Shown here one piece after another: positions 1 to 60,400 of a stretch of 64,000 nt of DNA (its first letter is position 1; each line of letters opens with the position of its first letter). The notes below the pieces were generated by a model. The model saw only the letters and a list, made by a program, of their open reading frames with translations, did not search any database and was not told the origin of the DNA. The stretch spans positions 92,018-156,017 of the forward strand of contig DATDVR010000006.1 of the NCBI GenBank assembly GCA_035289925.1. The letters run 5' to 3'. Made by a program: the position numbers and the translations under genes. The DNA comes from Candidatus Nanoarchaeia archaeon. GTDB lineage: Archaea; Nanobdellota; Nanobdellia; SCGC-AAA011-G17; DATDVL01.

Positions 1-166
1 ATGAAATCTAAAGACATTTTACAAACTATCCAAAGGACTTTTTACCTTTTTAAGCCTTTTTAATTAGTATGGGGTATGCTGGATTATGGAAAAAAGAATT
101 TTGGTTTATAAACCTTCACAGGCAGTTTGTCGTGAATCTAAAATTTGCGGAAAATTCGGAAGAATT

Positions 167-982
167 TTATAGAAAATCCAATGGACTCTTGACTTTCTTT
201 AGTTGCGCATTTGACACATTAACATATTTTTGGGTCGTACTTAAATCTGCGTGACCGAGTAATTCCTGAATTATTCTTATGTCAGTTCCAGCTTCTAACA
301 AATGCGTTGCAAAAGAACTTCTTAATGCATGGCAGAAAACTCTTTTCTTTATTCCAGCTTTTTTTGCAGCATTATTCACAATCTTTTGCGCCATTCTTAT
401 AGATAAAAAGCCTTTCTTTGACGGAAATAAATATTCAGAATCTTCTTTTCTTTTTTCAAGATATTTTTTCAACTTTTCAATCAGTGAAACTGACAAAATT
501 ATATGCCTGTCTTTTCTTCCCTTTCCAGATCTGACTTTGCCCATCTTTTCAGAGAAGTCTAAATCGATAATCTTCATCTTTACAGCTTCTGAAACCCTCA
601 GGCCTGAAGAATAAAGCAGCTCAACTAATAATCTGTGCTTAGGATTTTCTATTGCATCCAGCAGGGAAGACATCTCTTCTTTCGACAAGACAGTTGGAAT
701 CTTTTTTTCTAATTTAGGGGTCTTTATCTTAGCAAAGATATCCTTTTCAAGAACTTCTTTGTAAAAAAACTTTAGGGTAGACAAAATAAGCGATGTTGAA
801 GCAGGCTTTATTTTTTTCTCTGACATCATATAAGCAAGATAGCTTTTGACATCATCTTCTGTTATTGAAGGAGGCTCTTTTTTTGTATAGTTAAGAAACA
901 ATTGATTGTGGCGCATATAATTTTTAACAGTAACTTCTGAAAAGCCCCTTAACTTAAGCTCAGTTTCCAGCTTTTTCAGCAT
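167..982 (-). CDS. xerA: XerA-type tyrosine recombinase
   Basis: N-terminal SAM-like domain (LRGFSEVTVKNY); catalytic R (GLRVSE), K (GKGRKDR), HALR, LGH and Y (STTQKY); 271 aa. Confidence 0.92.
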   Translation of the reverse strand: MLKKLETELKLRGFSEVTVKNYMRHNQLFLNYTKKEPPSITEDDVKSYLAYMMSEKKIKPASTSLILSTLKFFYKEVLEKDIFAKIKTPKLEKKIPTVLSKEEMSSLLDAIENPKHRLLVELLYSSGLRVSEAVKMKIIDLDFSEKMGKVRSGKGRKDRHIILSVSLIEKLKKYLEKRKEDSEYLFPSKKGFLSIRMAQKIVNNAAKKAGIKKRVFCHALRSSFATHLLEAGTDIRIIQELLGHADLSTTQKYVNVSNAQLKKVKSPLDFL

Positions 983-1721
983 GCTCTACCTCTTCAAAAT
1001 AAACCAAGTCTGAAAGCTTCTTTTTCTCTTCAAGATTTAACTTCCTGTATAAAGTAGGGAAAAACCCGTCAATTGTTAAAATAAATTCATCGCCTTGCGA
1101 CTCTATTACAGTATCAGCAACCAGATGAAATGCTAGATAAGATGCAGCGTCCTCCAATTTATTTCTATTAATTTTTGATGTTATCCTGTAATGCATTGCA
1201 TTCAATTTTGGATGCCTCTGTGGGACTCCTTCCAAAGCAAATTTTTCAAGCTGTTCCTTTAAATTTTTTATTTCAGAGAAAGTGTAGAATCTGCAGGGGA
1301 TTTTATCCGTATTTGAATAGACAACCGCATTATATCTTACTTGTTCATATCTTTCAACTGCAATGATGTTAACTTCCGGAGATTTTCTGCTGAGTATATT
1401 TATAGTCCTTATTTTATTAACAGGAATAATCCTGCCATTTTCCAATCCTATTCCATCTTCTTTTCCAAAATATATTTTTCTATCAAGATCGGTATTTCTT
1501 GTGGAAATAATACCGTCTTCAGTTTCTATATAATAATTACATCCAATGTCGTCCAAAAGATTTAGACATTCCTTTGTTTTTTCCTTTCTTTTTTTATTAT
1601 GTCCATAAAAAATCACTGAAACTTCCATATTTTTATTTACTCTTGGCGGCAAGAAAGAAGCCTTGGCTATTGCTGAAGGCAAATTACTATTTCCATCAAA
1701 AAAATTTATTGGAAGCGCCAT
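960..1721 (-). CDS. Hypothetical protein, overlapping the xerA start (same operon)
   Basis: 253-aa ORF; no recognised motif. Confidence 0.6.
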   Translation of the reverse strand: MALPINFFDGNSNLPSAIAKASFLPPRVNKNMEVSVIFYGHNKKRKEKTKECLNLLDDIGCNYYIETEDGIISTRNTDLDRKIYFGKEDGIGLENGRIIPVNKIRTINILSRKSPEVNIIAVERYEQVRYNAVVYSNTDKIPCRFYTFSEIKNLKEQLEKFALEGVPQRHPKLNAMHYRITSKINRNKLEDAASYLAFHLVADTVIESQGDEFILTIDGFFPTLYRKLNLEEKKKLSDLVYFEEVEHAEKAGN

Positions 1722-1723
1722 TT

Positions 1724-2074
1724 TTACTTTCTTTCGTAGATAATTTTTGCTACTTTCACTTCGTCGGTAAATTCTATTTTATTTTTTGCTGCTCTTTTAT
1801 CAAGATAATTGCTTACTTTTGCTTCCAACGCTGCCAAAGGACCCCTTGCCTGATCAACAAAAGAGTCTTTTTCATAGTTCAATCTTAAAATCCAGTCATC
1901 TATTTTAGGGTCAATCCTCATAAGCTCAACAGAAGTTATTACTTTCTTTGCTTCCTGATTTTCATCAGCAATCCTTTCAATGACGACAGACTGTTCTATG
2001 CTGCTGCAGTTAGATGATCCGTATACAACCCCTGCAACGCCCAACAATCCAACCAATGTTCTTTTGTAGTTCAT
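1724..2074 (-). CDS. Hypothetical secreted or membrane-anchored protein
   Basis: Basic-hydrophobic N-terminus (MNYKRTLVGLLGVAGVVYG). Confidence 0.6.
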   Translation of the reverse strand: MNYKRTLVGLLGVAGVVYGSSNCSSIEQSVVIERIADENQEAKKVITSVELMRIDPKIDDWILRLNYEKDSFVDQARGPLAALEAKVSNYLDKRAAKNKIEFTDEVKVAKIIYERK

Positions 2075-2086
2075 TTTAAGTTCTCC

Positions 2087-2362
2087 TTAAGCAACGACTG
2101 GAATTGAACCAGTTTCGCTTCCTTTCTTTGGTTCTGCCAAAACCATTTCTTCTAATAAGTTCAATGCCGCAGGCTTTCCTTTTTCTGCTGCAGTTCTCAT
2201 TATAACGTCATGGTCAGTCATAGTTAATTGCAATTTTTCAGCTAGAAATTCTGCTCTCTTTTCAGGATCATATTTATTGATTCCTAAACCTTCGTATAAT
2301 TCTACAAGTTTTTTACTTTCAATTGGGGTGTAAGACCCTATTTCTTCTTTTGTCCATATCAT
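2087..2362 (-). CDS. Hypothetical protein, first gene of the xerA operon
   Basis: 91-aa ORF preceded by AGGTGATAGGAG RBS on the minus strand. Confidence 0.6.
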   Translation of the reverse strand: MIWTKEEIGSYTPIESKKLVELYEGLGINKYDPEKRAEFLAEKLQLTMTDHDVIMRTAAEKGKPAALNLLEEMVLAEPKKGSETGSIPVVA

Positions 2363-2381
2363 TTTAAGCTCCTATCACCTT

Positions 2382-2409
2382 GGTTCGTATAAGTTTTTTA
2401 ATATGAACC
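2382..2409. other. dif-like Xer site S1
   Basis: GGTTCGTATAA-GTTTTT-TAATATGAACC, 11-6-11 imperfect palindrome. Confidence 0.8.
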
Positions 2410-2603
2410 TCATTTAAATATCTTTCGAACTATAAATTCATTAGTTTTTATTAAAGTTGTGGAGGAAAAATTGAAAAAACTGTCAATCAAGTTGTAAGAT
2501 TTACGAAAAATTCTAGGAAACCTTCTTAAAGAATTTTAACTTTAGATTGTTAAGGCTTAGCAAAAAGCTTATAAATAAGTTAAACTTAGTCAAACTAAGT
2601 AAT

Positions 2604-2834
2604 ATGGTACAAGCTTTGATAGAATTGGACGAGAACACCAATAGGGTATTGAACATAGTGAAAGCTAAATACAACCTAAAGGACAAGGGAAAAGCAGTAG
2701 AGTTCCTTGTAACCAAGTATATTGAAGATGAAGAAGAGCCAGACTTGAAACCAGAATTCATCGCGAAGATAAAGAAGATTGAGAAACAAAAATCAATAAG
2801 GGTGAAAGACTTTGCTAAGCGCTATGAAGTGTGA
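2604..2834 (+). CDS. DUF2683-like antitoxin
   Basis: MVQALIELDENTNRVLNIVKAKYNLKDK; ATG 2604 follows TATA and operator repeats; overlaps RelE-like gene. Confidence 0.7.
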   Translation: MVQALIELDENTNRVLNIVKAKYNLKDKGKAVEFLVTKYIEDEEEPDLKPEFIAKIKKIEKQKSIRVKDFAKRYEV

Positions 2835-3121
2835 AGCAAATGTACGAACCAGACATAAAGAAAGATCTAGATAAAATATTATTTAAGCTATATAAAAGGG
2901 ATAAAGAACAATATTTTAAAGTCAAAAAGAAGATAATATATCTTCAAGAAAACCCTTTTCACGCTTATAAATTCTTGAAAGAACCGCTGCAAGGATACAA
3001 TAGGGTTCACGTAACTGGCAGCTTTGTCTTAATCTTTAGAATAAATCATACAAACAGGACTATTGAACTGAAACACTATGATCATTGGGATAATGTCTAT
3101 AAATGGAGGCCAAAAGAATGA
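2831..3121 (+). CDS. RelE/StbE (YafQ-like) toxin
   Basis: ENPFHAYKFLKEPLQGYNRVHVTGSFVLIFRI, RelE-like; 96 aa. Confidence 0.75.
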   Translation: MKQMYEPDIKKDLDKILFKLYKRDKEQYFKVKKKIIYLQENPFHAYKFLKEPLQGYNRVHVTGSFVLIFRINHTNRTIELKHYDHWDNVYKWRPKE

Positions 3122-3303
3122 TAAAGATAATACAATCGATAGTTGATTTAGAAGACAGGGAAAACAGAGTAGTCAACCTTGTCAAGGCTAAGCATGGTTT
3201 TATAAATAAATCAGACGCCATAAACAATATTATTAGAAAATATGAAGAATTAGTTCTTGATAATGTACTGAAACCAATTATGGAAGAAAAGAAACAATAT
3301 TAA
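3103..3303 (+). CDS. Second DUF2683-like antitoxin paralog
   Basis: QSIVDLEDRENRVVNLVKAKHGFINKSDAIN, similar to 2604..2834. Confidence 0.65.
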   Translation: MEAKRMIKIIQSIVDLEDRENRVVNLVKAKHGFINKSDAINNIIRKYEELVLDNVLKPIMEEKKQY

Positions 3304-3310
3304 TCTTTTT

Positions 3311-3338
3311 AATACTTCAAATGTTTGTTATACGCACC
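3311..3338. other. dif-like site S2 (one good arm)
   Basis: AATACTTCAAA-TGTTTG-TTATACGCACC; right arm reverse complement GGTGCGTATAA is 10/11 to the E. coli XerC arm. Confidence 0.6.
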
Positions 3339-4150
3339 TATTCTCCAGTTTGTCTTTTATAAAACTTATACCCAAAGAAAACTACAACTAATATAGCACT
3401 TATTATAGCCGTAATATTTGCTCCAACTTCACCAAAAAAACGTACTACTATAAATAATAATATTACACAAATGAATATCACTGCAATAATATCAAAAAAT
3501 TTTTTCCAGGGTTTTTCTCTGAATACCTCAATAATTAAAGCCATTAATGCAACAAACAACATTATCCAAGTAGCAATCCACATATCCTCACTTAAATCCT
3601 CTAAATCTACATTTAATTTTAATAGTTTATCATTCGCTTCTATAGTTTTCTTATTTGCCTCTTCTGTTTGTTTCCACAAGTCATATTGCCAACGGGGCAT
3701 TACATCAAAAGTAAAATTATAACCACCAAAATGTCTAACATAATTATTATGTGTAAATCTTCTATAAAATTCTATATCTCCTTTTTTTGATATTACTTGG
3801 ATTTTATAGTCCCCAACAGTGTCAAATTCTTCTACAAAATACTCTGTTTCATTCTTACCTATTGGTGAAATAGTAAGGTTCCTTGAAGGTTCTAAATATA
3901 CAGGAAATTCCCTTTGTGATCTAATCAGGCTTCCTTTAGGATTAAATAATAAAACTAAGATAGTATCATTTATAGTTACATTTCCAGTATTATTCAATGA
4001 AATTTCATAATAAAAAAAATCGCCAACTACTTTAGCGTCAAAGGCCTCCTTAATTAAAATCTTATGAGTTATCGTTAATTCTGATGCATTTACAATTATA
4101 GAAAAATTTAGTATTAATAAAAACAATAAAAAAAGATGTTTTTTAATCAT
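3338..4150 (-). CDS. Exported/membrane protein (signal peptide, beta-rich domain, coiled coil, C-terminal TM helices)
   Basis: Hydrophobic N-terminus and three C-terminal hydrophobic segments. Confidence 0.7.
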   Translation of the reverse strand: MIKKHLFLLFLLILNFSIIVNASELTITHKILIKEAFDAKVVGDFFYYEISLNNTGNVTINDTILVLLFNPKGSLIRSQREFPVYLEPSRNLTISPIGKNETEYFVEEFDTVGDYKIQVISKKGDIEFYRRFTHNNYVRHFGGYNFTFDVMPRWQYDLWKQTEEANKKTIEANDKLLKLNVDLEDLSEDMWIATWIMLFVALMALIIEVFREKPWKKFFDIIAVIFICVILLFIVVRFFGEVGANITAIISAILVVVFFGYKFYKRQTGE

Positions 4151-4194
4151 AGGTTGGTAAATACTATAAACTTTATAAAGGTTTTCACTAATTC

Positions 4195-5095
4195 GGTCTA
4201 GTTGAAAATCTCTATTTTCAACAAAGAAGAATTATGAATAATTCCTCTCATGTACATGTCTGATCTCTGTGTTTGGATTAATCTAGAGCTAACGCTAGCT
4301 CCATACTTTTGTTTGGTTGCACCAAACAAAGACTCGCTTATCTCCCTTCTATAATAAGTCCTTGTCCTCCAATGCTTTCTCATAATCTTCCTGTAAAATC
4401 CTTTTCTTGTGCTCTTCCTGCATGGAATCATTGAAGTGATTCCATGCTTGTAGCAAAGATGATGTACAGCTTCGCTATCATAGCCCTTGTCAGCTACAAG
4501 AATCCTTGGAGTGGCTGACAATCTTTTAAGCAAGTAAGAAACATCTTTTGTGTCATGCCTTGGCTTTGCACGAAGGCGCAAAGCCAAAATCTTCTTGCGC
4601 CTTGTGTCTACAACAGCACTTAGCTTTAAAGGCCTGCTAATTGGCTTCACTCTGTCAATCCTTTTGATGTAGTGCCAGCTAGGATTTGTCCTACTTATTG
4701 TTGTTGCATCAATGGATGCAACATTTATCTCAGCAAATAAAGCTGTCTGGGCAAACAACTTCTCAATAATCTTAGCTACTTTTTTATTCATCTTGGCTAA
4801 AGCTGAATAAGTAGGTACTTCAAATCCCAGATTATACAAAAGCTTTGCAGCTCTCCTATAGGAGAGCCTGCATGCTTGCCTTATCCAAAGGGCAAGCATA
4901 TGCTGCCAGAATTCATACTTCTTTGGTCCATAGTGATGAAACCATCTTGGCATGTTTGCTCTTCTGAGCAAACGCTTAATTTTATTTACTAGTTTTACTT
5001 CTGTTTTCATGGGTAGCTAAGTCCTACCCCCTAATGTTGCTTTACCCAAAGCACATTAGGTTATTTATATTTTTCTAGACATTTTCAACAACGCC
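4195..5095 (-). mobile_element. IS5-type insertion sequence (DDE_Tnp_1), 901 bp, 9-bp TSD
   Basis: TIRs GGTCTAGTTGAAAAT and GGCGTTGTTGAAAAT (rc); TSD CACTAATTC at 4186-4194 and 5096-5104. Confidence 0.9.
4198..5010 (-). CDS. IS5-type DDE transposase
   Basis: SIDAT, LVADKGYDS, RREISESLFGATK motifs; 270 aa. Confidence 0.9.
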   Translation of the reverse strand: MKTEVKLVNKIKRLLRRANMPRWFHHYGPKKYEFWQHMLALWIRQACRLSYRRAAKLLYNLGFEVPTYSALAKMNKKVAKIIEKLFAQTALFAEINVASIDATTISRTNPSWHYIKRIDRVKPISRPLKLSAVVDTRRKKILALRLRAKPRHDTKDVSYLLKRLSATPRILVADKGYDSEAVHHLCYKHGITSMIPCRKSTRKGFYRKIMRKHWRTRTYYRREISESLFGATKQKYGASVSSRLIQTQRSDMYMRGIIHNSSLLKIEIFN

Positions 5096-12906: not shown

Positions 12907-13437
12907 TTAGCTCTTTCTAAAACAGAAGTATGAGATTGCTATTGCTAACACAGATCCTAAAAAGAAGAAACCGTTCCTAAAACCAGAATCTTGAATTTCA
13001 AACACTGATGAACCTGTAATAGAACTAGGCAAGTATAAGGAAGCCGTGACTAAAAGAAACAAGATGGCTGCTGCCAATGAATCTTCCAAATTATGCTGCA
13101 TTTTTTCTATTCTGCCGCCTCTCTTTTTTTCCTGTTGAACAATTCCCTTGAAGATTATTCCTTTTTTTGTGTACTTCTCAACTATCGCTTCAAATCCTTT
13201 ATATGGTAATTTTCCTTCTTCAAATGATTTATATGCATTACTTAAACCTTTACCAAGAATATAATAAGTTTCCCTATTAATTTTCTTAGCCTTAAGACTT
13301 TGCTTTAATTCTGTTAAAACACCGTAATAAAGATGATGTGCTGCTGTTTCTTCTCTTATTTCTTTATCTCTTTCTGAAATTTTGCCGTATCTTTTTCCTT
13401 TACCAGATAGAGCATGAATATACCTCATTATTCCCAT
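12907..13437 (-). CDS. Hypothetical protein with C-terminal SITG TM hairpin
   Basis: C-terminus similar to 19191..19676. Confidence 0.6.
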   Translation of the reverse strand: MGIMRYIHALSGKGKRYGKISERDKEIREETAAHHLYYGVLTELKQSLKAKKINRETYYILGKGLSNAYKSFEEGKLPYKGFEAIVEKYTKKGIIFKGIVQQEKKRGGRIEKMQHNLEDSLAAAILFLLVTASLYLPSSITGSSVFEIQDSGFRNGFFFLGSVLAIAISYFCFRKS

Positions 13438-16010: not shown

Positions 16011-17153
16011 TTACTTTATCTTTTTCAAAATATGTCTTTTTCCACGCCAATCTAAAGCATGCAAAAGAACTTCCCTTATTGTTGAAACTGGAATAACTTT
16101 GATTTTAGCTTTCAATTTTGGGGTAACTAAAACATCTTGCGCATTGGCTTTTGGGATTATAACTTCTTTTAATCCTGCTTGAATTGCTGCTTCTATTTTT
16201 TGTGTTACACCACCAATAGCTAAAACTTCTCCTCTAACTGACAAAGAGCCAGTCATGGCTACAGATTGCTTTACAGGAACTTTAGTCAAAGCTGAAATAA
16301 TTGCAGTTGCTACGGCTATTGAAGCAGAATCTCCTTCTACACCTGACGAAGCAGTCTGCAAAAACTGTACAAAGATATCATATTTTTCTTTTATGTCTTC
16401 GCCAAAATACTTCAAGATAATTGCTGAAACATTTTTTACAGCTTCTTTTGCTATTTCTCCTAATTTCCCTGTTGCAACGAACTCTGTCTTTTTGCCTCCA
16501 ATAGTTACTGCAGATTCTATTGGCAAGACAACGCCTGAATAAGAACCTTCAGATCCCATAACAGCAAGACCATTAACTCTACCAACAGAAGTTCCTGTTA
16601 TCCTGATAATGTCATATTCTTTCTTGTTTTCAATGTACTTGTCTACAATTTGTTGTTCTAAAGTTCTTGACAATCTCTTTGCCCCATAAATGTGCTTTTT
16701 TTCTACAAACTTTGATTTTTCTTCTAAAGCTAAATCGCCAGCTGCTCTTACTAAACCGCCCAGTTCTCTTAGTTTTAATGTTAATTTGCCTGCTCTTCCA
16801 GTTCTTCTTCTAGCTTCGTCAATGATTACATTTACTGCTTCTCTTGTGAAATGTGGAATTTTTTTATCTTTTTCAACTTCCTGAGCGACAAAAATTGCTA
16901 TTTTATCACGATTAGAAACATTGTCATCCATTGTTAGATTCATGTTGACTTCGTAACCATAACCTCTGATTCTAGATCTCAAAGCAGGGTGCATTTTCTT
17001 CATAGTTTCTAAAGTTCCTGCTGCAACCAAAATAAAATCGCAATTGTGAGTAATAATCCCATTAGCCAAGTAGGTTCCATTTAAAGTAGAAATATTATAA
17101 ACATAACCGTCATAATCTATTCTTCTAATATTCTTTATTTTACTTATTTTCAT
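16011..17153 (-). CDS. lon: LonB part 3: IntC of intein 2 (37 aa) plus C-extein with protease domain
   Basis: MKISK...NGIITHN|CDFILVAAG; catalytic GDSAS Ser and GGVTQK Lys; ATG at 17153. Confidence 0.9.
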
Positions 17154-18999
17154 TTTTGCTCCAGAACCGTAATGTTGGAATTGGAATGTTATATAAATTG
17201 GCAACATCTTTTATGGACCAGCCAGAATAGACCCTGCCTAAAACGTCCATCTTAAACTGTTGGTCATATCTTCTATAAGTCGGAGGTATCCTCGCCAGTA
17301 CTGTATTCTTAGATAGTTTTAGTTTTTTTGTTATCTGTTTTATAGTTAAACCCCGTCTTCTTAGTTCATCTATTTTAGAATATGCTTCTACAAGTCTTTT
17401 TTGATTTGCATGATATTTTTTGCCTTCTATTGCGATGTTATGTAAGGAATTATTCTTATCAAATGCATAAGTAATGTTGATGCCGTTTAATAAGTTGGAT
17501 AATTGCTCATAAGAGGTGGCTAATTTAAAAGAATATCGTGCAGCAGACACTTTTTCTCCTTTTAAAGTTTTAATATATTCTTTGCTTTTCTTAGTACTAG
17601 ATGTTTTAACGTTGTTCTTATTAAGAAATGTTTTTATTTCGTCCAGGAAGGCTAGGTGCTCTCTTTCAAATTTATTTATTTTTGCCATTAAAAAATGTGG
17701 GCTATTTGATATGTTTTTTATATTCCCATATAGTTCTGCCGATATTAAGGAACTGAAAAATTCTTTCTCTATAACACTAGAACCATGAATCCAGTTTGGG
17801 ACTTTAAAGGGTTGAGCGACCTTATCATTCTTTGGAACCCCTAATGCAATAAACAACCTAGCAAGATTGGTGTTATTTATTGAGGCTTCAATCCCTTTTT
17901 CAGTCTTTCTTATTTTACAATTTTTCTTTATATCTTCTCCGAATACTTTTTTTGCATCATCTAGGAAAGCGGAGATGTCATTTCCCGCCTTGAGACCCGC
18001 ACTAAAATAAATCCTCCTTATATTAACACCGCCATCGCCGAACAAAACTCCGGATAATCTTGCTAATAATGGCAGACGCAAGTCGTCTCTTGCTAAAGGG
18101 CATATCTTTTTAGAAACGAGATATTCAACTGCCTTTATTGCTCTTGGCTTTGCCCCTTTGATCCAGTTCCTTATAGTACTTTCGTCTACTTCTAATAATT
18201 TTGCTAAATCTTTTTTTAACATATTTTCTGAGAGCTTACAATAAGCTAGATAAGCATACGCAATTCGTTTTTGCTCTTTTGAATAAGTTTCTATGATGTC
18301 TATTTCATTAAAGATTACTTCTTCATCACCATTGTAGCAAACAATATTGTCTGCCGTGTTTAGATTGCCTGCCTTTTCCATACCTTTTATTGTCAGTAGG
18401 GGGTGGTCTGGGGTTACTTTTATTTTAGTTCCATCGTCAAGCTCAATCTCTATAACCTCCCCACAGTATTTAGTCTTATAAAGAACTAAAGGGATATCTT
18501 TCTGAAACTGGGTATTAAACGAAAGGATTTTGTCATTCTGTGAGAGAGGAGAAGAAAGTGTTCTATTTTGGCCTATTCTAACCAATTGCTTTTTTGACAA
18601 ACTGTTTTCTATATAATCCCCTATAGGGGTGTATTTGCCATTAATATGTACTGGCGTGTCTGGAGTCAAACAAGGAACAGCTTCAGTTCTTACCATAGCA
18701 CCAGAACTTCTTTCAGACTGACCCGTAATAGGATATTTTTTCTCCTGCATGGCTGTTAAAAGTTCCTGCTGAGATTGTGGCTGTAAATTTCCAATTTCGT
18801 CTATAAACAAGACTCCTTTGTTTGCACGATGGATCATTCCTGCTATAACACGTTCGTGTGCGGGGGTGCCTAAACCGCCTGAGTTTTTAACTAGAATTTT
18901 ATTAGCAAACAAGTTGCCTGAGGATGTTGTTAAGTTGTATAAATAACCATTATAAGGGATTTTTTCTACTTTCTTGACGCGTTCTGGTTTTAAGTGCAT
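17140..18999 (-). CDS. lon: LonB part 2: IntC of intein 1 (39 aa), 70-aa extein, N-part of intein 2 (510 aa, LAGLIDADG and HTH)
   Basis: ...ILVKN|SGGLGTP...FIDEI...TEAVP|CLTPDT; LSGVLFGDG. Confidence 0.9.
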
Positions 19000-19190: not shown

Positions 19191-19676
19191 TTACTTTCTA
19201 AAACAGAAAAAGGCAATTGCAACTGCTAAAACAGAGCCAAAAACAAACAAGTAATTTCTTGCCGAAGCATCAGCGACATTATAAATGGAGGCTCCTGTAA
19301 TTGAAGGAATAAATAAGGAGGAAACTAAGACGGAAAAAAGGAGAATAGACGGTAGATAAGAAGGTTTCTTCCTTTTTACTAAAGTGTCTCCAATTCTAGT
19401 AAAGTCCCTATAAGTGACATCCCCTCTTTGAAATGCGGTATATGCCTTATTCAACCGGTCTAGACTTCTTATAAAGGCCCTTTCGTCTCGTGGATTATCA
19501 AATCCTTTAAAGTTTGCACGGTCAAAATTGGGGGCCATGTAAAGGATAAGTTCCCTGCGGTACCTGAGAAATTCTTTATCTGTGGGTTCCTTTCTTTCTT
19601 GAGACTGGAAGAATTCTTCTACTTTATTTAATATTCTTTCTAGCTTTCCTTTTTCCTTAACGTTTATTACCCTCAT
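19191..19676 (-). CDS. Hypothetical protein with C-terminal SITG TM hairpin, between the split-intein halves
   Basis: 161 aa; own TATA; C-terminus similar to 12907..13437. Confidence 0.65.
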   Translation of the reverse strand: MRVINVKEKGKLERILNKVEEFFQSQERKEPTDKEFLRYRRELILYMAPNFDRANFKGFDNPRDERAFIRSLDRLNKAYTAFQRGDVTYRDFTRIGDTLVKRKKPSYLPSILLFSVLVSSLFIPSITGASIYNVADASARNYLFVFGSVLAVAIAFFCFRK

Positions 19677-19711: not shown

Positions 19712-20722
19712 CTAACTATCTAATGTTAAAACTTTGTGCCAAGGCCTAATTTTGTCTGCATTTATATATTTTATTTGATTAAAGATAGTTTTTACAGCCA
19801 CTTTATGCTCTGGTGTTACAATTAATTCTTTTCCATATTCTGTTGTTATTTTAATTAAATTTCCTTTTCTTTTGTGTTTGTTTACTGATAAAACCTCTAC
19901 AGCTTCAATTTTGTTGTTTTTCTCACCAAGGATAGTTAATTCCTTATTTGAAAGGAATACCGCATTATAACTTCCTTTTTTAATTAAGTCTTTCTTATGT
20001 TTTTTTAATAATTGATCAACAACATCAAATTTTGTATATTGTAGTAAATATTGATTATTTTTTGTTGGTTGTAAAACTATTATGTCATCACTGTAGGATG
20101 ATAAAAAACATTGCAGAGGATCGTGAAGTACGTCCCCGAGTAAAGAACCTGCATGAGCGCCAGTAGCGTCTACAAAAGGAGCTTTGTCCTTGTCTGAAGA
20201 ATCAATAAGTAATTTTGGGATTCCAGATGTATTTGTTTTCATTCTTCTAGCCATGTTGATATAAATTACAAAAACTGCCAAAAAAATCATTGAGCTTACC
20301 AAAGCAGCAGCTGCCAATATATCCCCATACTGCTTTCTAATCCACCAAGGAGAGAAAAGTGACAATAAAACTAGGAAAAAGAAAAGGAAGTTTTGGGATT
20401 TAAATGAAGAGTTTAGTTGTAGTTTAGTTTGGTCTATCAGCTGCTTGCCTTTGCCTTTAGGCATTGTCCTGACCAAAGGAACATTTTCATCACTTGAATT
20501 TGGAAAAATAAGAACGTCAAGCAATTTTTCTTTCGGCAATAACTCTGCCAAGGCTTGACCTGTCAAAGATTTTCCAGTGCCTGGCTCTCCAATCAATAAA
20601 ACATTTCTGCGTTGTTTTGCTGCTTTCTTGATTATCTCTACAGCCTCTTCCTGGCCTATAATCTGGTCTACTGTGCTCTTAGAGATATTAATATCTGCTG
20701 TAGTTTTGTAGTTTAATGGCAT
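19712..20722 (-). CDS. lon: LonB part 1: 204-aa N-extein plus 132-aa IntN
   Basis: GEPGTGKS Walker A, two TM helices, HDPLQ|CFL...VTPEHK...ADKIRPWHKV. Confidence 0.92.
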   Translation of the reverse strand: MPLNYKTTADINISKSTVDQIIGQEEAVEIIKKAAKQRRNVLLIGEPGTGKSLTGQALAELLPKEKLLDVLIFPNSSDENVPLVRTMPKGKGKQLIDQTKLQLNSSFKSQNFLFFFLVLLSLFSPWWIRKQYGDILAAAALVSSMIFLAVFVIYINMARRMKTNTSGIPKLLIDSSDKDKAPFVDATGAHAGSLLGDVLHDPLQCFLSSYSDDIIVLQPTKNNQYLLQYTKFDVVDQLLKKHKKDLIKKGSYNAVFLSNKELTILGEKNNKIEAVEVLSVNKHKRKGNLIKITTEYGKELIVTPEHKVAVKTIFNQIKYINADKIRPWHKVLTLDS

Positions 20723-56854: not shown

Positions 56855-59506
56855 TTAGATAATCAACTGCCTTCTTTCTTTTATAGCTGATGGCGAATCT
56901 CCACCATGCCAACTTCTTTTTGGCTTTATCTGAATAGGATAAATTCTTTCAGAATTGTCATCCAATAAGATTGCCGAGCCTTTAACTTTTGGTAAATCAT
57001 TCATGAAACCTTGAATGTCTGATAATAAATAAGTCTGCATCATCTGATTCAATGCTTCCAAGTCTATTTTTGAAGTCAAGCGATGACTAATTATTACATC
57101 GGATTGAGTTATAACATCTTTATGAATCTCTCCAGGCTGCTGGGTTGCTGCTATTAATGAAATCCCAGGTTGACGCCCTTCCCTTAAAATTTGGATTAAA
57201 GCATCTGTTGCTGGAGTTGAACCTGTTCTTGGTAAAAATTCATGACAATTGTGTACAATAAAACCATTCGCTACAAAATTGTGTAAATCTTCTACCTCTA
57301 AATCGTAAACTTCTTCTTTTTCTAGAATTTCTATATTTTTAATTTTTTCAAATATAATTTCAGTTTGATACCTCTTTTTTATCCATTTATCAAAATGATC
57401 AAAAGAATTTGATGCTCTTATTTTTCTATCGTGCCTTGTCCATTCTTTTACATAGTAAAGAGGGATACTAAGTTGTTTTGATATCTGATTAAGTTTAAAT
57501 CCTTTCTTATGGAGTCTAGTTATATTTTCTTTTATTTTTAATCGTTCACGTACTTTTTCTTCTTTTGCTTTAAGATAGGCCAACCATTTATAACCTGCCA
57601 TCTCCTTTTCTTTGCAATAACGGTAACCTATTTTTTCTAGGAACAATAAAGTGTTTTTTATACTCTTCGCTAGAGTTAAGACTATCTTTATTGTCTTATC
57701 TCCATTCTTTCTTATATTGCCTGGTCTTTTAGCAATACTACTCACTTTTATACCTAAACTTTCGAATAAATACTTTAACTGATTAGCAAATTTGAATGCC
57801 TTTTTTTCTAGTTTTTCTAGTTTATTAAAGCTTAATCTTATTGGATTGAAATCTGATTTTGCTGTTGAAGACTGTGAAATATTTTTACCATCACTTCCCA
57901 TATACGCCCCTAAAAATTCTATCTTTTCTTTGTTTGTTGCTTTTAATAACCACTTTGGTATTAGATATTTTTGTGTTGCTTTGTCACCTATAGGGGTTCC
58001 TAACTTTTTGAAATATCTAAATGCTTTTGTAGAAGCGCCTATTGATTTGCTGACTCCATTTACAAAGTGTTCTATTCCTTTGTCATCTGTTATTTTTGAC
58101 TTTGTCCTTCTTGTCGTTATTTTACTAGATTTGAATCCCATTATTTTTAAATCCTCTTTTATTTTTTGCAAATCTAAATCTGACTTTTTGCCACTGAATC
58201 CTAAAGATTTGGTTTTTTCACTTGTCCAACCATCTCCAAATAAATGCCCCACAATTCTTGCTTGCGTTAATTTATAATTTTTTGAGTAATGTTGTATTGC
58301 TATTGAGCCTATTTCTGGCACGCTTACTGCTGAGGCAAACCCATATCTTGTTAATACTCTATGCTCTGGAGTGCATATTAATTCTCTTCCTGTTTCTGTC
58401 CTTATTTTTATTAAATCTCTTTTTTCTTTTTTAAAGACTCGTTTTACCTTTTTATGTAAAAATTCTTTTTTATTAGTGTCAAATGATAAAACTTCAAAAT
58501 TTTCTCCCTTTTTTGATCTATTAACTATGTCTCCTATTCTTGTATGAGCTTTATCAGTTATTATTTCACATTTGTAAGGTAGGCATTCATCTACCATTAG
58601 CCAGACTAGTGGCTGCTCTAATTTATCTTCACCTTCAAAATACTTGTCATAAGTTCCTATTGATTCAACTTCCTCACTTTTTCTTGAACTTATCCTTTGA
58701 TTAAGAAGTTTTTTAGAAATCAAACCTATAATCAAGCTTTTTATGCTCCAGTTTCCTGAAACGTTTGTATAAGGACTTAGATCTAGAACTGTTACTTCGC
58801 CAGCTTTAACTAAATCCTCAATCTTAGTGCCGTATTTTTTAAATAAGCCCCAGTTTGAAGCCACAGAAAAAAAACTTTCAACCAAGTCTTTTGTCTTATG
58901 CTCTGCCTTGCTGTTAGATTTTACCAAAGTTACTATGTCGTCAATTCCATAATCTGATGATTCTTCTGCCAATTCTGTTATCACTTGGTCAATCAATATT
59001 CCTGGCGAGTCTGTCAATGAAATGTCAAATACTGAGCACCAATCTGAAGTTGTCAATTCTGCTGTTTTTATTGAAAGCTCGTTGTCTACTGGTATTCCCC
59101 TATTTTTGTAATCATTGAAAGAACCGTAAGGAACAAACAAGTTAATATTCAATCCTTCAGGCTTTATATTCCATTGTTGTAATAATTTTTCCTGCTTCAA
59201 GTTAGGATATTTCATTGTCCAGAATATCCCCATCGTGTCAAACATCAGAACTGCAAGATTTTTTGAAACTTCTTCAGGAAGCTTAACCATCTCTTCTGCT
59301 ATTGCGGATAATGAAAAACTTTTGCCACTTCCGCGCTTACCTGAGACTAAAACTATATGAGAACTTGCTACATCTAAAAGAATGTTGTTGCTTAACGAAG
59401 TCGTAGGGCCCATCTTTACATAGTTCTTGCCTATGAAGATAGTGCCTCGTTCACCAAGCCTTTTTTTATCACTCTCGTTTCTTCCCACTATTACATTGTA
59501 AGGCAT
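56855..59506 (-). CDS. HerA/DUF87-like P-loop ATPase with intein
   Basis: GKRGSGKS; DE|intein|CHEFLP; LREGRQPGISLIAATQQP; start taken as MPYNV. Confidence 0.85.
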   Translation of the reverse strand: MPYNVIVGRNESDKKRLGERGTIFIGKNYVKMGPTTSLSNNILLDVASSHIVLVSGKRGSGKSFSLSAIAEEMVKLPEEVSKNLAVLMFDTMGIFWTMKYPNLKQEKLLQQWNIKPEGLNINLFVPYGSFNDYKNRGIPVDNELSIKTAELTTSDWCSVFDISLTDSPGILIDQVITELAEESSDYGIDDIVTLVKSNSKAEHKTKDLVESFFSVASNWGLFKKYGTKIEDLVKAGEVTVLDLSPYTNVSGNWSIKSLIIGLISKKLLNQRISSRKSEEVESIGTYDKYFEGEDKLEQPLVWLMVDECLPYKCEIITDKAHTRIGDIVNRSKKGENFEVLSFDTNKKEFLHKKVKRVFKKEKRDLIKIRTETGRELICTPEHRVLTRYGFASAVSVPEIGSIAIQHYSKNYKLTQARIVGHLFGDGWTSEKTKSLGFSGKKSDLDLQKIKEDLKIMGFKSSKITTRRTKSKITDDKGIEHFVNGVSKSIGASTKAFRYFKKLGTPIGDKATQKYLIPKWLLKATNKEKIEFLGAYMGSDGKNISQSSTAKSDFNPIRLSFNKLEKLEKKAFKFANQLKYLFESLGIKVSSIAKRPGNIRKNGDKTIKIVLTLAKSIKNTLLFLEKIGYRYCKEKEMAGYKWLAYLKAKEEKVRERLKIKENITRLHKKGFKLNQISKQLSIPLYYVKEWTRHDRKIRASNSFDHFDKWIKKRYQTEIIFEKIKNIEILEKEEVYDLEVEDLHNFVANGFIVHNCHEFLPRTGSTPATDALIQILREGRQPGISLIAATQQPGEIHKDVITQSDVIISHRLTSKIDLEALNQMMQTYLLSDIQGFMNDLPKVKGSAILLDDNSERIYPIQIKPKRSWHGGDSPSAIKERRQLII
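57248..58585 (-). mobile_element. 446-aa intein with LAGLIDADG endonuclease in the Walker B motif
   Basis: CLPYKC start, CTPEH, HLFGDG, YMGSDG, NGFIVHN|C. Confidence 0.9.
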
Positions 59507-59548
59507 TAATTTCACAACCTTTTTAAAGTATAAATAGTTTGCCCTATT

Positions 59549-60400
59549 ATGATAAATCAAATTAAGACTGTCTTGCTTTTAGGGATATTAACTGCAATAA
59601 TGCTATTTATTGGCAGCTTATTTGGAACTACAGGACTGACTATAGCCTTAATACTTGTTTTAGGCATGAATTTGATAAGCTATTTTTTCTCACATAAAAT
59701 AGTGCTTGCTATTTATAGGGCCAAGGAAGCTAGTAAAAAGGATTATCCTAAATTACACGCAATTGTTGAAAATGTAGCTAGAAAAGCAGGAATTCCTAAG
59801 CCTAAGGTTTACATAATACCTAGTGACAATCTGAATGCCTTTGCTTCTGGAAGGAATCCTAAAAATGCAGTTGTTGCTTGCACAGAAGGAATATTGAGGG
59901 TTTTAAATGAAAAAGAGCTTGAAGGAGTTTTAGCTCATGAAGTTTCTCATGTAAAGAATAGAGATATTTTAATAGGGACAATTGCAGCTACAATTGCTGG
60001 AGTTATAACCTATGTAGCGCATATGGCAAGATTTGCTGCTATATTTGGCGGAGGGAGAGATAGAGAAGGAAATTCAAACATAATAGGTCTGTTACTTATT
60101 TCAATAATTGCGCCTATAGCTGCAATGATAATACAATTAGCAATCTCAAGAGCAAGAGAATATCATGCTGATGAAAGCGGAGCTAAATTATTGAAAGATG
60201 GAGAAGGATTAGCTTCTGCTTTGTTAAAGCTAGAAAAACATAATAAAATGCACCCAATGAGATTCGGCTCTCCATCGTTTTCTCATTTATTTATTAGTAA
60301 TCCATTATCTGGCGGAGGGCTAGTTAATTTGTTTCTAACCCACCCCCCAATTCACCTTCGTGTAAAGAAACTAAGAGAATTGAGCAAGAGCTTTGGATAA
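59549..60400 (+). CDS. htpX: HtpX zinc metalloprotease
   Basis: NAFASG, AHEVSH, SRAREYHAD, THPP. Confidence 0.93.
   Translation: MINQIKTVLLLGILTAIMLFIGSLFGTTGLTIALILVLGMNLISYFFSHKIVLAIYRAKEASKKDYPKLHAIVENVARKAGIPKPKVYIIPSDNLNAFASGRNPKNAVVACTEGILRVLNEKELEGVLAHEVSHVKNRDILIGTIAATIAGVITYVAHMARFAAIFGGGRDREGNSNIIGLLLISIIAPIAAMIIQLAISRAREYHADESGAKLLKDGEGLASALLKLEKHNKMHPMRFGSPSFSHLFISNPLSGGGLVNLFLTHPPIHLRVKKLRELSKSFG

What the first reader, a model, noticed from the sequence alone, without database searches (positions are those of the whole stretch)
16011..18672. Second Lon intein also broken: overlapping ORFs or a +1 frameshift, giving a three-piece protease
Seen: the 510-aa endonuclease-containing N-part stops at 17140 after an HTH. 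A 37-aa IntC ([20 protein letters not shown]...THN|C) starts at ATG 17153 in the +1 frame, overlapping by 14 nt; removing one A from the A5 run would fuse them. Established: natural IntC fragments are ~35-40 aa and often begin MxKI. Inference: two orthogonal trans-splicing events would build a 617-aa LonB (204+70+343). A homopolymer sequencing error or frameshifting is the alternative.
Basis: partly seen in the sequence, partly recalled or inferred. Interest (0 to 1): 0.65.

Follow-up and report, generated by a model that had tools for sequence, protein, structure and literature searches.

The report
Split Lon intein keeping its endonuclease
The second intein in this small archaeon's only Lon protease gene really is divided between two overlapping genes, with its DNA-cutting (homing endonuclease) domain still attached to the first half; the same break is present in all 14 related sequences where the junction can be read, so it is a conserved and apparently undescribed form of split intein, not a sequencing error.

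Summary
Observation confirmed. On the minus strand a 619-aa ORF (18999-17140) holds IntC1, a 70-aa LonB piece and a 510-aa N-part of intein 2 with a LAGLIDADG endonuclease and HTH tail. It stops at TAA 17142-17140. A 37-aa IntC2 plus the 343-aa LonB C-part starts at ATG 17153 in the +1 frame, overlapping by 14 nt.

The sequencing-error reading is rejected. Thirteen other loci from independent assemblies carry this intein (IntN2 32-68% identical among the nine full-length ones). In all of them the endonuclease-bearing ORF ends at the same point and a separate IntC2 ORF starts in another frame. There are at least five junction designs and two frame offsets. No contiguous form appeared among 1.84 billion representative proteins. 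In one locus a contiguous intein 1 sits in the same ORF as the split intein 2.

Splicing residues and both LAGLIDADG acidic residues are conserved. Carriers are scattered among intein-free lonB alleles, as expected of a mobile element. Trans-splicing giving a 617-aa LonB from three pieces is inferred, not shown. I rate it a new variant of a known kind.

The parts
19712..20722 (-). LonB piece 1: N-extein (204 aa, Walker A GEPGTGKS, membrane segment) followed by IntN1 (132 aa, no endonuclease)
   Evidence: TIGR00764 positions 2-196, intein_Nterm hit, ends ...HDPLQ|CFLSS...
18883..18999 (-). IntC1 (39 aa, [10 protein letters not shown]...ILVKN), start of ORF2
   Evidence: 69-94% identical IntC1 heads ORFs of about 460 aa in many relatives; the extein alignment to TonLonB starts at residue 39/40.
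18673..18882 (-). Middle extein, 70 aa (SGGLGTPAH...VLFIDE...RTEAVP) with Walker B
   Evidence: aligns to Thermococcus onnurineus LonB (3K1J) residues 180-251; the TIGR00764 match starts at position 195.
18313..18672 (-). Intein 2, N-terminal splicing lobe (about 120 aa; Cys1 = residue 110 of ORF2; block B TPDH at 196-199)
   Evidence: intein_Nterm TIGR01445, 49 bits against a cut-off of 24.5, residues 110-203. C110, T196, H199 invariant in all 9 aligned proteins.
17143..18312 (-). Intein 2 homing-endonuclease module fused in frame to the N-lobe: two-motif LAGLIDADG core (LFGDGG with D322; LISAELYG with E422) plus C-terminal HTH tail. It ends ...FWSKNENK.
   Evidence: HTH families. D322 and E422 invariant; pLDDT about 70-95 from residue 230 on; best structural matches are the TliVMA intein (7QSU/7QSS) and I-DmoI (TM about 0.63 on the target).
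17140..17153 (-). 14-nt stop/start overlap: ATG (17153-17151) of IntC2 lies upstream of the TAA (17142-17140) of ORF2. GGAG lies 5 nt upstream of the ATG. A5 run at 17153-17157.
   Evidence: The same 14-nt design occurs in L022 and L119; other designs occur in the other loci.
17043..17153 (-). IntC2, 37 aa ([37 protein letters not shown]), blocks F and G, ending His-Asn
   Evidence: Intein_splicing profile positions 121-155; intein_Cterm TIGR01443, 20.7 bits against a cut-off of 15.6; 38-81% identical in 8 other loci.
16011..17042 (-). LonB piece 3: C-extein (343 aa) starting with the +1 Cys (CDFILVAAG); AAA lid and Lon protease domain
   Evidence: Lon_C 7.8e-35, LonB_AAA-LID, TIGR00764 positions 266-606; the only Lon_C match in the 916-kb genome.

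Best explanation
This is a genuinely split, endonuclease-bearing intein at a second insertion site of lonB (...RTEAVP|CDF..., equal to P250|C251 of Thermococcus onnurineus LonB). The intein DNA is one contiguous block of about 1.63 kb, but it is translated as two polypeptides. (i) One is IntC1-70 aa extein-IntN2, in which the N-terminal splicing lobe is fused in frame to a two-motif LAGLIDADG homing endonuclease with an HTH tail. (ii) The other is a 37-aa IntC2 fused to the LonB C-part. IntC2 starts at an ATG that overlaps the upstream stop by 14 nt, so it is most likely co-transcribed and translationally coupled, with GGAG 5 nt upstream. Inferred steps: IntC2 docks onto the N-lobe and completes the HINT fold. 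Cys1, the block-B Thr/His, the terminal His-Asn and the +1 Cys then carry out class-1 protein splicing in trans. Together with the separately split intein 1, this joins three gene products into a 617-aa LonB. Also inferred: because the element is contiguous in DNA and keeps an apparently intact endonuclease, it still moves as a unit and breaks lonB into two ORFs wherever it inserts. Shown here: the ORF structure, its conservation, the conserved catalytic residues and the patchy distribution. Not shown: transcription, translation start, splicing, endonuclease activity.
For: (1) Structure in the window. (2) Of 9 homologous proteins 38-57% identical, all full-length ones end at the same point, e.g. 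...WLKNENK...WCRNEK...WKKNYYAGDS. (3) The junction was read in 13 other loci from independent assemblies (Logan, JGI, ENA, NCBI MAGs). In each, IntC2 starts on its own ATG (GTG in L120) in a different frame. Overlaps are 14, 14, 11, 1, 1, 8, 8, 8 nt, 17 nt, and 11 or 44, 1, 1, 8 nt. The frame offset is +1 in most and +2 in L024, L040, L123 and L124. (4) An exhaustive phmmer search of 1.84 billion representatives gave only 5 hits below 1e-30. Each of them ends within a few residues of the end of its match, so none has a C-extein after the endonuclease. P0014 ends ...YWKNNYLGGY. (5) Internal controls: in L124 one ORF contains a contiguous endonuclease-bearing intein 1 followed by the split intein 2. 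The window itself has a contiguous intein in a HerA-like ORF at 56855-59560. (6) C110, T196, H199, D322 and E422 are invariant, and HN|C is kept in all IntC2. The intein_Nterm and intein_Cterm models score above their cut-offs. (7) This is the only Lon in the genome and its protease domain is intact. (8) On an extein tree the 8 carriers need 8 gains or losses, at least 6 of them forced by supported branches. The window's nearest LonB alleles (G002 and G003, 77-79% identical) lack intein 2. Empty and occupied sites differ by an exact 1627-1645-nt insert.
Against: Shine-Dalgarno-like motifs are rare before genes of this window (6 of 48 against 6.6% background), and two loci (L022, L119) lack one before IntC2, so the initiation mechanism is uncertain. 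The GGAG in the window partly comes from a conserved Trp codon. The AF2 model gives low confidence for the splicing lobe. That fits an unfolded split fragment but may only reflect a 9-sequence alignment. Conservation of the split could in principle be neutral rather than selected. The block-F Asp is Asn (VYN).
Confidence: 0.85

Rival explanations
1. Homopolymer sequencing or assembly error: the true sequence has A4 and the intein is an ordinary contiguous endonuclease-bearing intein.
For: Removing one A of the A5 run fuses the frames into a 995-aa ORF. Another note on this genome reports a G10-tract frameshift elsewhere in the window, so homopolymer problems cannot be excluded a priori. Reads could not be inspected.
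Against: 13 other loci from different samples and assemblers have the same split. Several have junctions without any homopolymer (TAATG, TGATG, ATGNNTAA) and a different frame offset. L022 and L119 share the same AAAAATGAAAAYAAGTAA design. No contiguous relative was found in 1.84 billion representatives. Only 1 of 18 homopolymer runs in the intein lies at the split point.
Confidence: 0.02
2. Programmed recoding (+1 ribosomal frameshift or transcriptional slippage at the A run) makes a single contiguous precursor that splices in cis; the two ORFs are only apparent.
For: The overlap contains an A-rich stretch (AAA AAT GAA AAT AAG TAA) in three loci.
Against: The required shift is +1 in most loci but +2 (equivalent to -1) in L024, L040, L123 and L124. 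No slippery motif is shared. Every locus keeps a start codon at the canonical first residue of IntC, and 7 of 9 have a GGTG/GGAG/GAGG motif within about 12 nt upstream of it. An A5 run is too short for efficient transcriptional slippage (own knowledge).
Confidence: 0.04
3. The break inactivated splicing: the pieces either work as a non-covalent LonB assembly or the gene is decaying.
For: Splicing was not tested. The block-F Asp is replaced by Asn. Split genes without inteins are known in Nanoarchaeota (own knowledge).
Against: All nucleophiles and the TxxH and HN motifs are invariant across relatives only 32-68% identical in IntN2. This is the only Lon gene in the genome and its domains are intact. 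An unspliced 510-aa insert next to the Cys that opens the CDFILVAAG strand would sit inside the AAA+ core. Persistence in at least 14 lineages argues against decay.
Confidence: 0.06

Closest known systems
Canonical naturally split inteins (cyanobacterial DnaE; Nanoarchaeum equitans PolB)
   Same: Two polypeptides. The split lies at the canonical site between the N-lobe (blocks A, B) and a C-fragment of about 35-40 aa (blocks F, G). The IntC begins MxKI..., with Cys1 and a +1 Cys. The host gene is essential.
   Different: Those are mini-inteins without an endonuclease, and reviews define split inteins that way (PMC4760082, PMC10663303). Their halves lie at separate loci. Here IntN carries a full LAGLIDADG endonuclease with an HTH tail (510 aa), the two ORFs overlap by 1-17 nt, and the element is patchily distributed like a mobile intein.
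'Fractured genes' of marine metagenomes (Dassa et al. 2009, PMC2677866)
   Same: IntN and IntC genes lie in one locus with a homing endonuclease between the splicing halves. The 3' end of the endonuclease reading frame overlaps the start of the IntC gene (6-69 bp in 15 of their loci; 1-17 nt here).
   Different: There the endonuclease is a free-standing gene of the GIY-YIG or Vsr-like type, and the loci are probably from phages. Here it is a LAGLIDADG domain fused in frame to IntN, in cellular DPANN archaea. This corresponds to a half-completed 'step IIIa' of their model, a state that the passages I read do not describe as observed.
Contiguous LonB inteins (Thermococcales-type; e.g. P0041, P0027, P0038, P0044)
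   Same: The host protein is the same, they carry a LAGLIDADG endonuclease about 30% identical to this one, and they use class-1 residues.
   Different: They sit at site 1 (HDPxQ|SGGLGTP) and are one polypeptide. Intein 2 sits 70 residues downstream (TEAVP|CDF), and every member seen is split.
Engineered three-fragment ligation with two orthogonal split inteins (e.g. Pinto et al. 2020, PMC7090010)
   Same: A middle fragment carries an IntC at its N-terminus and a different IntN at its C-terminus, so two trans-splicing reactions join three pieces.
   Different: That design is artificial. Here it would be a natural arrangement, and I know of no published natural case with two split inteins in one protein (own knowledge; no hit).

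Membership tests
Class-1 intein (HINT splicing domain) | Block A nucleophile (Cys/Ser1) directly after the N-extein | tested here: met
   Cys110 of ORF2 follows ...RTEAVP and is invariant in 9 sequences. intein_Nterm TIGR01445 scores 49 bits against a cut-off of 24.5.
Class-1 intein (HINT splicing domain) | Block B TxxH | tested here: met
   TPDH; T196 and H199 are invariant.
Class-1 intein (HINT splicing domain) | Block G His-Asn followed by a +1 Cys/Ser/Thr | tested here: met
   ...IITHN|CDF in the window; HN|C in all other loci. intein_Cterm TIGR01443 scores 20.7 bits against a cut-off of 15.6.
Class-1 intein (HINT splicing domain) | Protein splicing activity | not testable with these tools
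   Needs expression and mass spectrometry.
Naturally split (trans-splicing) intein | N and C parts are made as separate polypeptides | tested here: met
   Separate ORFs in different frames with their own start codon, in the window and 13 other loci. That they are translated this way is inferred from ORF conservation.
Naturally split (trans-splicing) intein | Mini-intein without an endonuclease domain, as split inteins are defined in reviews | tested here: not met
   IntN2 carries a complete two-motif LAGLIDADG domain and an HTH tail. Definitions in PMC4760082 and PMC10663303.
Naturally split (trans-splicing) intein | Trans-splicing demonstrated | not testable with these tools
Fractured gene (Dassa et al. 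2009) | Free-standing endonuclease gene between the IntN and IntC genes | tested here: not met
   The endonuclease is in frame with IntN2, with no stop between them. Relatives do show the free-standing form at site 1, e.g. L003.
Fractured gene (Dassa et al. 2009) | Endonuclease 3' end overlaps the start of the IntC gene | tested here: met
   14 nt here and 1-17 nt (11 or 44 in L121) elsewhere, against 6-69 bp in the paper.
LAGLIDADG homing endonuclease | Two LAGLIDADG helices, each ending in a catalytic acidic residue; I-DmoI-like fold | tested here: met
   LFGDGG (D322) and LISAELYG (E422) are invariant. Foldseek matches 7QSU/7QSS and I-DmoI with target TM about 0.63.
LAGLIDADG homing endonuclease | Site-specific cleavage of the intein-free allele | not testable with these tools
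   Only indirect evidence: the patchy distribution on the extein tree.
Archaeal LonB protease | Full-length match to the LonB model once the inteins are removed | tested here: met
   The three pieces match TIGR00764 at positions 2-196, from 195 on, and 266-606 of 608. Lon_C and LonB_AAA-LID domains are present.

The most novel reading that the evidence does not exclude
Intein 2 is a homing-competent split intein. It would be a mobile element carrying an active LAGLIDADG endonuclease on its N-fragment and a built-in stop/start cassette, so each invasion of an empty lonB allele turns one gene into two translationally coupled genes. The split state would be favoured by selection rather than being an accident, since no re-fused form is seen although a 1-nt change would suffice in some loci. 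In genomes that also have the split intein 1, LonB would be made by two orthogonal natural trans-splicing reactions from three polypeptides.
Probability: 0.5. Interest if true: 0.8.

Novelty: new variant of a known kind. Interest (0 to 1): 0.7.

Why it matters
Natural split inteins are few. All textbook examples are endonuclease-free mini-inteins regarded as immobile end-points of intein evolution. This family keeps the homing endonuclease on the N-fragment, is still contiguous in DNA, and is scattered among intein-free alleles. It offers a living example of the step between contiguous inteins, fractured genes and classical split inteins. It also makes two long-standing questions directly testable: how split inteins arise, and whether they can spread. 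In practice it offers new short (37-40 aa) IntC partners and, together with intein 1, a naturally co-evolved and presumably orthogonal pair for three-piece protein ligation. For genome annotation, these lonB pieces should not be called pseudogenes or 'sigma-54 regulators', as one NCBI record names the middle piece.

Tried and rejected

2. Close relatives: 60 genomes of the same order and 401 of the class have no close copy of intein 2. The homologous loci came instead from the big protein and contig collections.

3. Internal promoter: a TTTATATA box lies 40 nt upstream of the IntC2 ATG in the window, but it is not conserved in the other loci and the motif occurs 35 times in the window. I rejected it as chance.

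4. Shine-Dalgarno argument: only weak. SD-like motifs are rare in this genome and absent before IntC2 in L022 and L119.

5. Literature: searches for a described split LonB intein or an endonuclease-bearing natural split intein found none. PMC3906313 only names the Pab and Pfu Lon inteins. That the published Thermococcales Lon inteins sit at site 1 is inferred from P0041, whose exteins closely resemble T. onnurineus LonB. I did not check the deposited Pyrococcus sequences.

6. Folding the reconstituted IntN2 + IntC2: a fused sequence may not be submitted to the structure tool. Only ORF2 alone was folded, and its splicing lobe came out at low confidence.

7. Kinship of the other carrier genomes is not disclosed by the tool.

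Full report
**What is in the window.** The window is AT-rich (about 33% GC). It lies in a 916-kb, 16-contig, 88.5%-complete genome whose relatives are labelled Woesearchaeota, Nanoarchaeia or Nanobdellota. The only Lon protease domain in that genome is encoded on the minus strand in three ORFs:

- 20722-19712: 204-aa N-extein plus a 132-aa IntN1.
- 18999-17140 (619 aa): 39-aa IntC1, a 70-aa extein, and the 510-aa N-part of a second intein.
- ATG 17153 to 16011: 37-aa IntC2 plus the 343-aa C-extein.

A 161-aa gene (19676-19191) separates the first two ORFs. The last two overlap by 14 nt. The minus strand reads ...TTC TGG AGC AAA AAT GAA AAT AAG TAA, with the ATG of IntC2 in the +1 frame. Deleting one A gives a single 995-aa frame. 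The three pieces tile the LonB model TIGR00764 at positions 2-196, from 195 on, and 266-606. The middle piece aligns to residues 180-251 of Thermococcus onnurineus LonB (3K1J). That places intein 2 between P250 and C251.

**Anatomy of intein 2.** The splicing residues are all present:

- Cys1 is residue 110 of ORF2.
- Block B is TPDH (residues 196-199).
- IntC2 ends ...THN and is followed by the +1 Cys.

The NCBIfam intein N- and C-terminal models both score above their cut-offs. Between the N-lobe and the stop lies a two-motif LAGLIDADG endonuclease (LFGDGG with D322; LISAELYG with E422) and an HTH-rich tail. An AlphaFold model gives pLDDT of about 70-95 from residue 230 on. Confidence is low for the extein and the splicing lobe. 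The closest structural matches are the endonuclease-bearing TliVMA intein (7QSU/7QSS) and I-DmoI.

Comparison with other sequences answers the question instead.

- A search of 5.8 billion proteins found eight relatives of ORF2 that are 37-57% identical. All full-length ones end at the same place (...WLKNENK...WCRNEK...WKKNYYAGDS...WKKAGDLNV).
- Their contigs, plus loci from GTDB genomes and JGI metagenomes, give 13 further junctions.
- In every one, a separate ORF begins at the first residue of IntC2, in a frame different from the endonuclease ORF.

| Overlap | Loci |
|---|---|
| 14 nt | window, L022, L119 |
| 11 nt | L023; L121 (11 or 44 nt, depending on the start) |
| 8 nt (ATGNNTAA) | L041, L042, L025, L125 |
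| 1 nt (TAATG or TGATG) | L024, L040, L123, L124 |
| 17 nt, GTG start | L120 |

The frame offset is +1 in most loci and +2 in the four with a 1-nt overlap. Among the nine loci with a full-length IntN2, those sequences are only 32-68% identical to one another. An exhaustive HMMER pass over 1.84 billion representatives found five close relatives. Each ends within a few residues of the end of its match, so none has a C-extein after the endonuclease.

Two internal controls exclude a general artefact. In L124 a single ORF contains a contiguous, endonuclease-bearing intein 1 followed by the split intein 2. The window itself has a contiguous intein in a HerA-like ORF. A homopolymer error is therefore excluded as the explanation of the architecture. 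Frameshift recoding is unlikely, because neither the offset nor any slippery motif is shared.

**Is it functional?** C110, T196, H199, D322 and E422 are invariant, and HN|C is kept everywhere. LonB is single-copy and its domains are intact. Most loci have GGTG, GGAG or GAGG 4-12 nt before the IntC2 start. In the second clade these come from variable Gly-rich tail codons, which hints at selection for ribosome binding. SD-like motifs are otherwise rare in this genome and two loci lack one, so I treat coupling or re-initiation as likely but unproven. A TATA-like box in the window is not conserved.

**Mobility.** Intein 2 is absent from 60 relatives in the same order and from 400 other genomes sampled from the class. 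The window's closest LonB alleles (same family, 77-79% identical exteins) have an empty site, whereas other carriers have exteins only 61-69% identical. On an extein tree of 48 sequences, the eight carriers each sit next to intein-free alleles. That needs 8 changes, at least 6 of them forced by supported branches. Occupied and empty sites differ by an exact 1627-1645-nt insert between the Pro and Cys codons. This is the pattern expected of a homing element, and every copy carries the break. It could also reflect repeated precise loss.

**Context: intein 1.**

- Site 1 (HDPxQ|SGGLGTP) occurs in contiguous form. One example, P0041, has exteins closely resembling Thermococcus onnurineus LonB.
- It also occurs with IntN1 fused to the endonuclease and a separate IntC1 (L023, L031, L027).
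- It occurs with a free-standing endonuclease gene between the halves (L003).
- It occurs without an endonuclease, as in this window.

The site-1 endonucleases are about 30% identical to the intein-2 one. The 'IntN-endonuclease | IntC' form is thus a recurrent state in these archaea. At site 2 it is the only state seen.

**Comparison with what is known.** Reviews define split inteins as split mini-inteins (PMC4760082; PMC10663303). The closest published arrangement is the 'fractured gene' of Dassa et al. 2009 (PMC2677866):

- It has IntN, a free-standing GIY-YIG or Vsr-like endonuclease gene, and IntC.
- The endonuclease 3' end overlaps the IntC start.
- The authors proposed that loss of the endonuclease gene's flanks could fuse it into the intein (their step IIIa).

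The present family looks like that step half done (or half undone), with a LAGLIDADG enzyme and in cellular archaea. I found no paper describing it. Notes from other agents of this scan report the same kind of LonB arrangement in other genomes. I treated them as leads, not evidence.

**Verdict.** The sequencing-error alternative is rejected. The feature is a conserved, probably mobile, endonuclease-bearing split intein. In this genome it makes LonB a three-piece protein that needs two trans-splicing events. Splicing, orthogonality and endonuclease activity remain to be shown experimentally.

Noticed in passing
window 19191-19676 (-) and 12907-13437 (-): The 161-aa gene between the two halves of split intein 1 is a paralogue of a 176-aa gene 6 kb away (33% identity, E 2e-18). 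The two share a C-terminal hydrophobic segment ending ...FCFRK. Neither has a Pfam family.
   Followed up: partly
window 56855-59560 (-): A 901-aa HerA/DUF87-type ATPase carries a contiguous intein (Intein_splicing 3.1e-25, residues 336-771) whose endonuclease is distantly related to that of Lon intein 2. The genome search also showed further intein-like matches on other contigs of this genome (C4, C7, C12), so it is intein-rich.
   Followed up: partly
L124 (JGI Ga0315289_10000056) 1-4217: One lonB ORF combines a contiguous endonuclease-bearing intein at site 1 with the split intein at site 2 (TGATG stop/start overlap).
   Followed up: yes
L031 (G321:C48) 1380-1386: At site 1, the IntN1-endonuclease ORF (688 aa) is followed by an in-frame stop, one codon, and then the ATG of the IntC1 ORF. 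This is the same 'endonuclease on the N-half' split, made by a stop codon instead of a frame change.
   Followed up: partly
L023 (Logan SRR22387811) 3227-3649: A 140-aa PD-(D/E)XK-like gene (PDDEXK_5, weak hit) sits between the IntN1-endonuclease ORF and the IntC1 ORF. In this locus both Lon inteins are of the endonuclease-bearing split type.
   Followed up: no
L120 (ENA ERZ27247128) 3660-3694: A variant junction: relative to L040 it has one T fewer and A changed to G. The endonuclease ORF is therefore extended by 5 codons (…GGFSVSNE) and IntC2 would start on GTG with a 17-nt overlap. The contig ends 4 nt after the stop.
   Followed up: partly
P0009 / L025 (GCA_043809245.1): NCBI names the middle LonB piece (IntC1 + extein + IntN2) a 'sigma 54-interacting transcriptional regulator'. 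This is a mis-annotation caused by the 70-aa AAA+ fragment.
   Followed up: no
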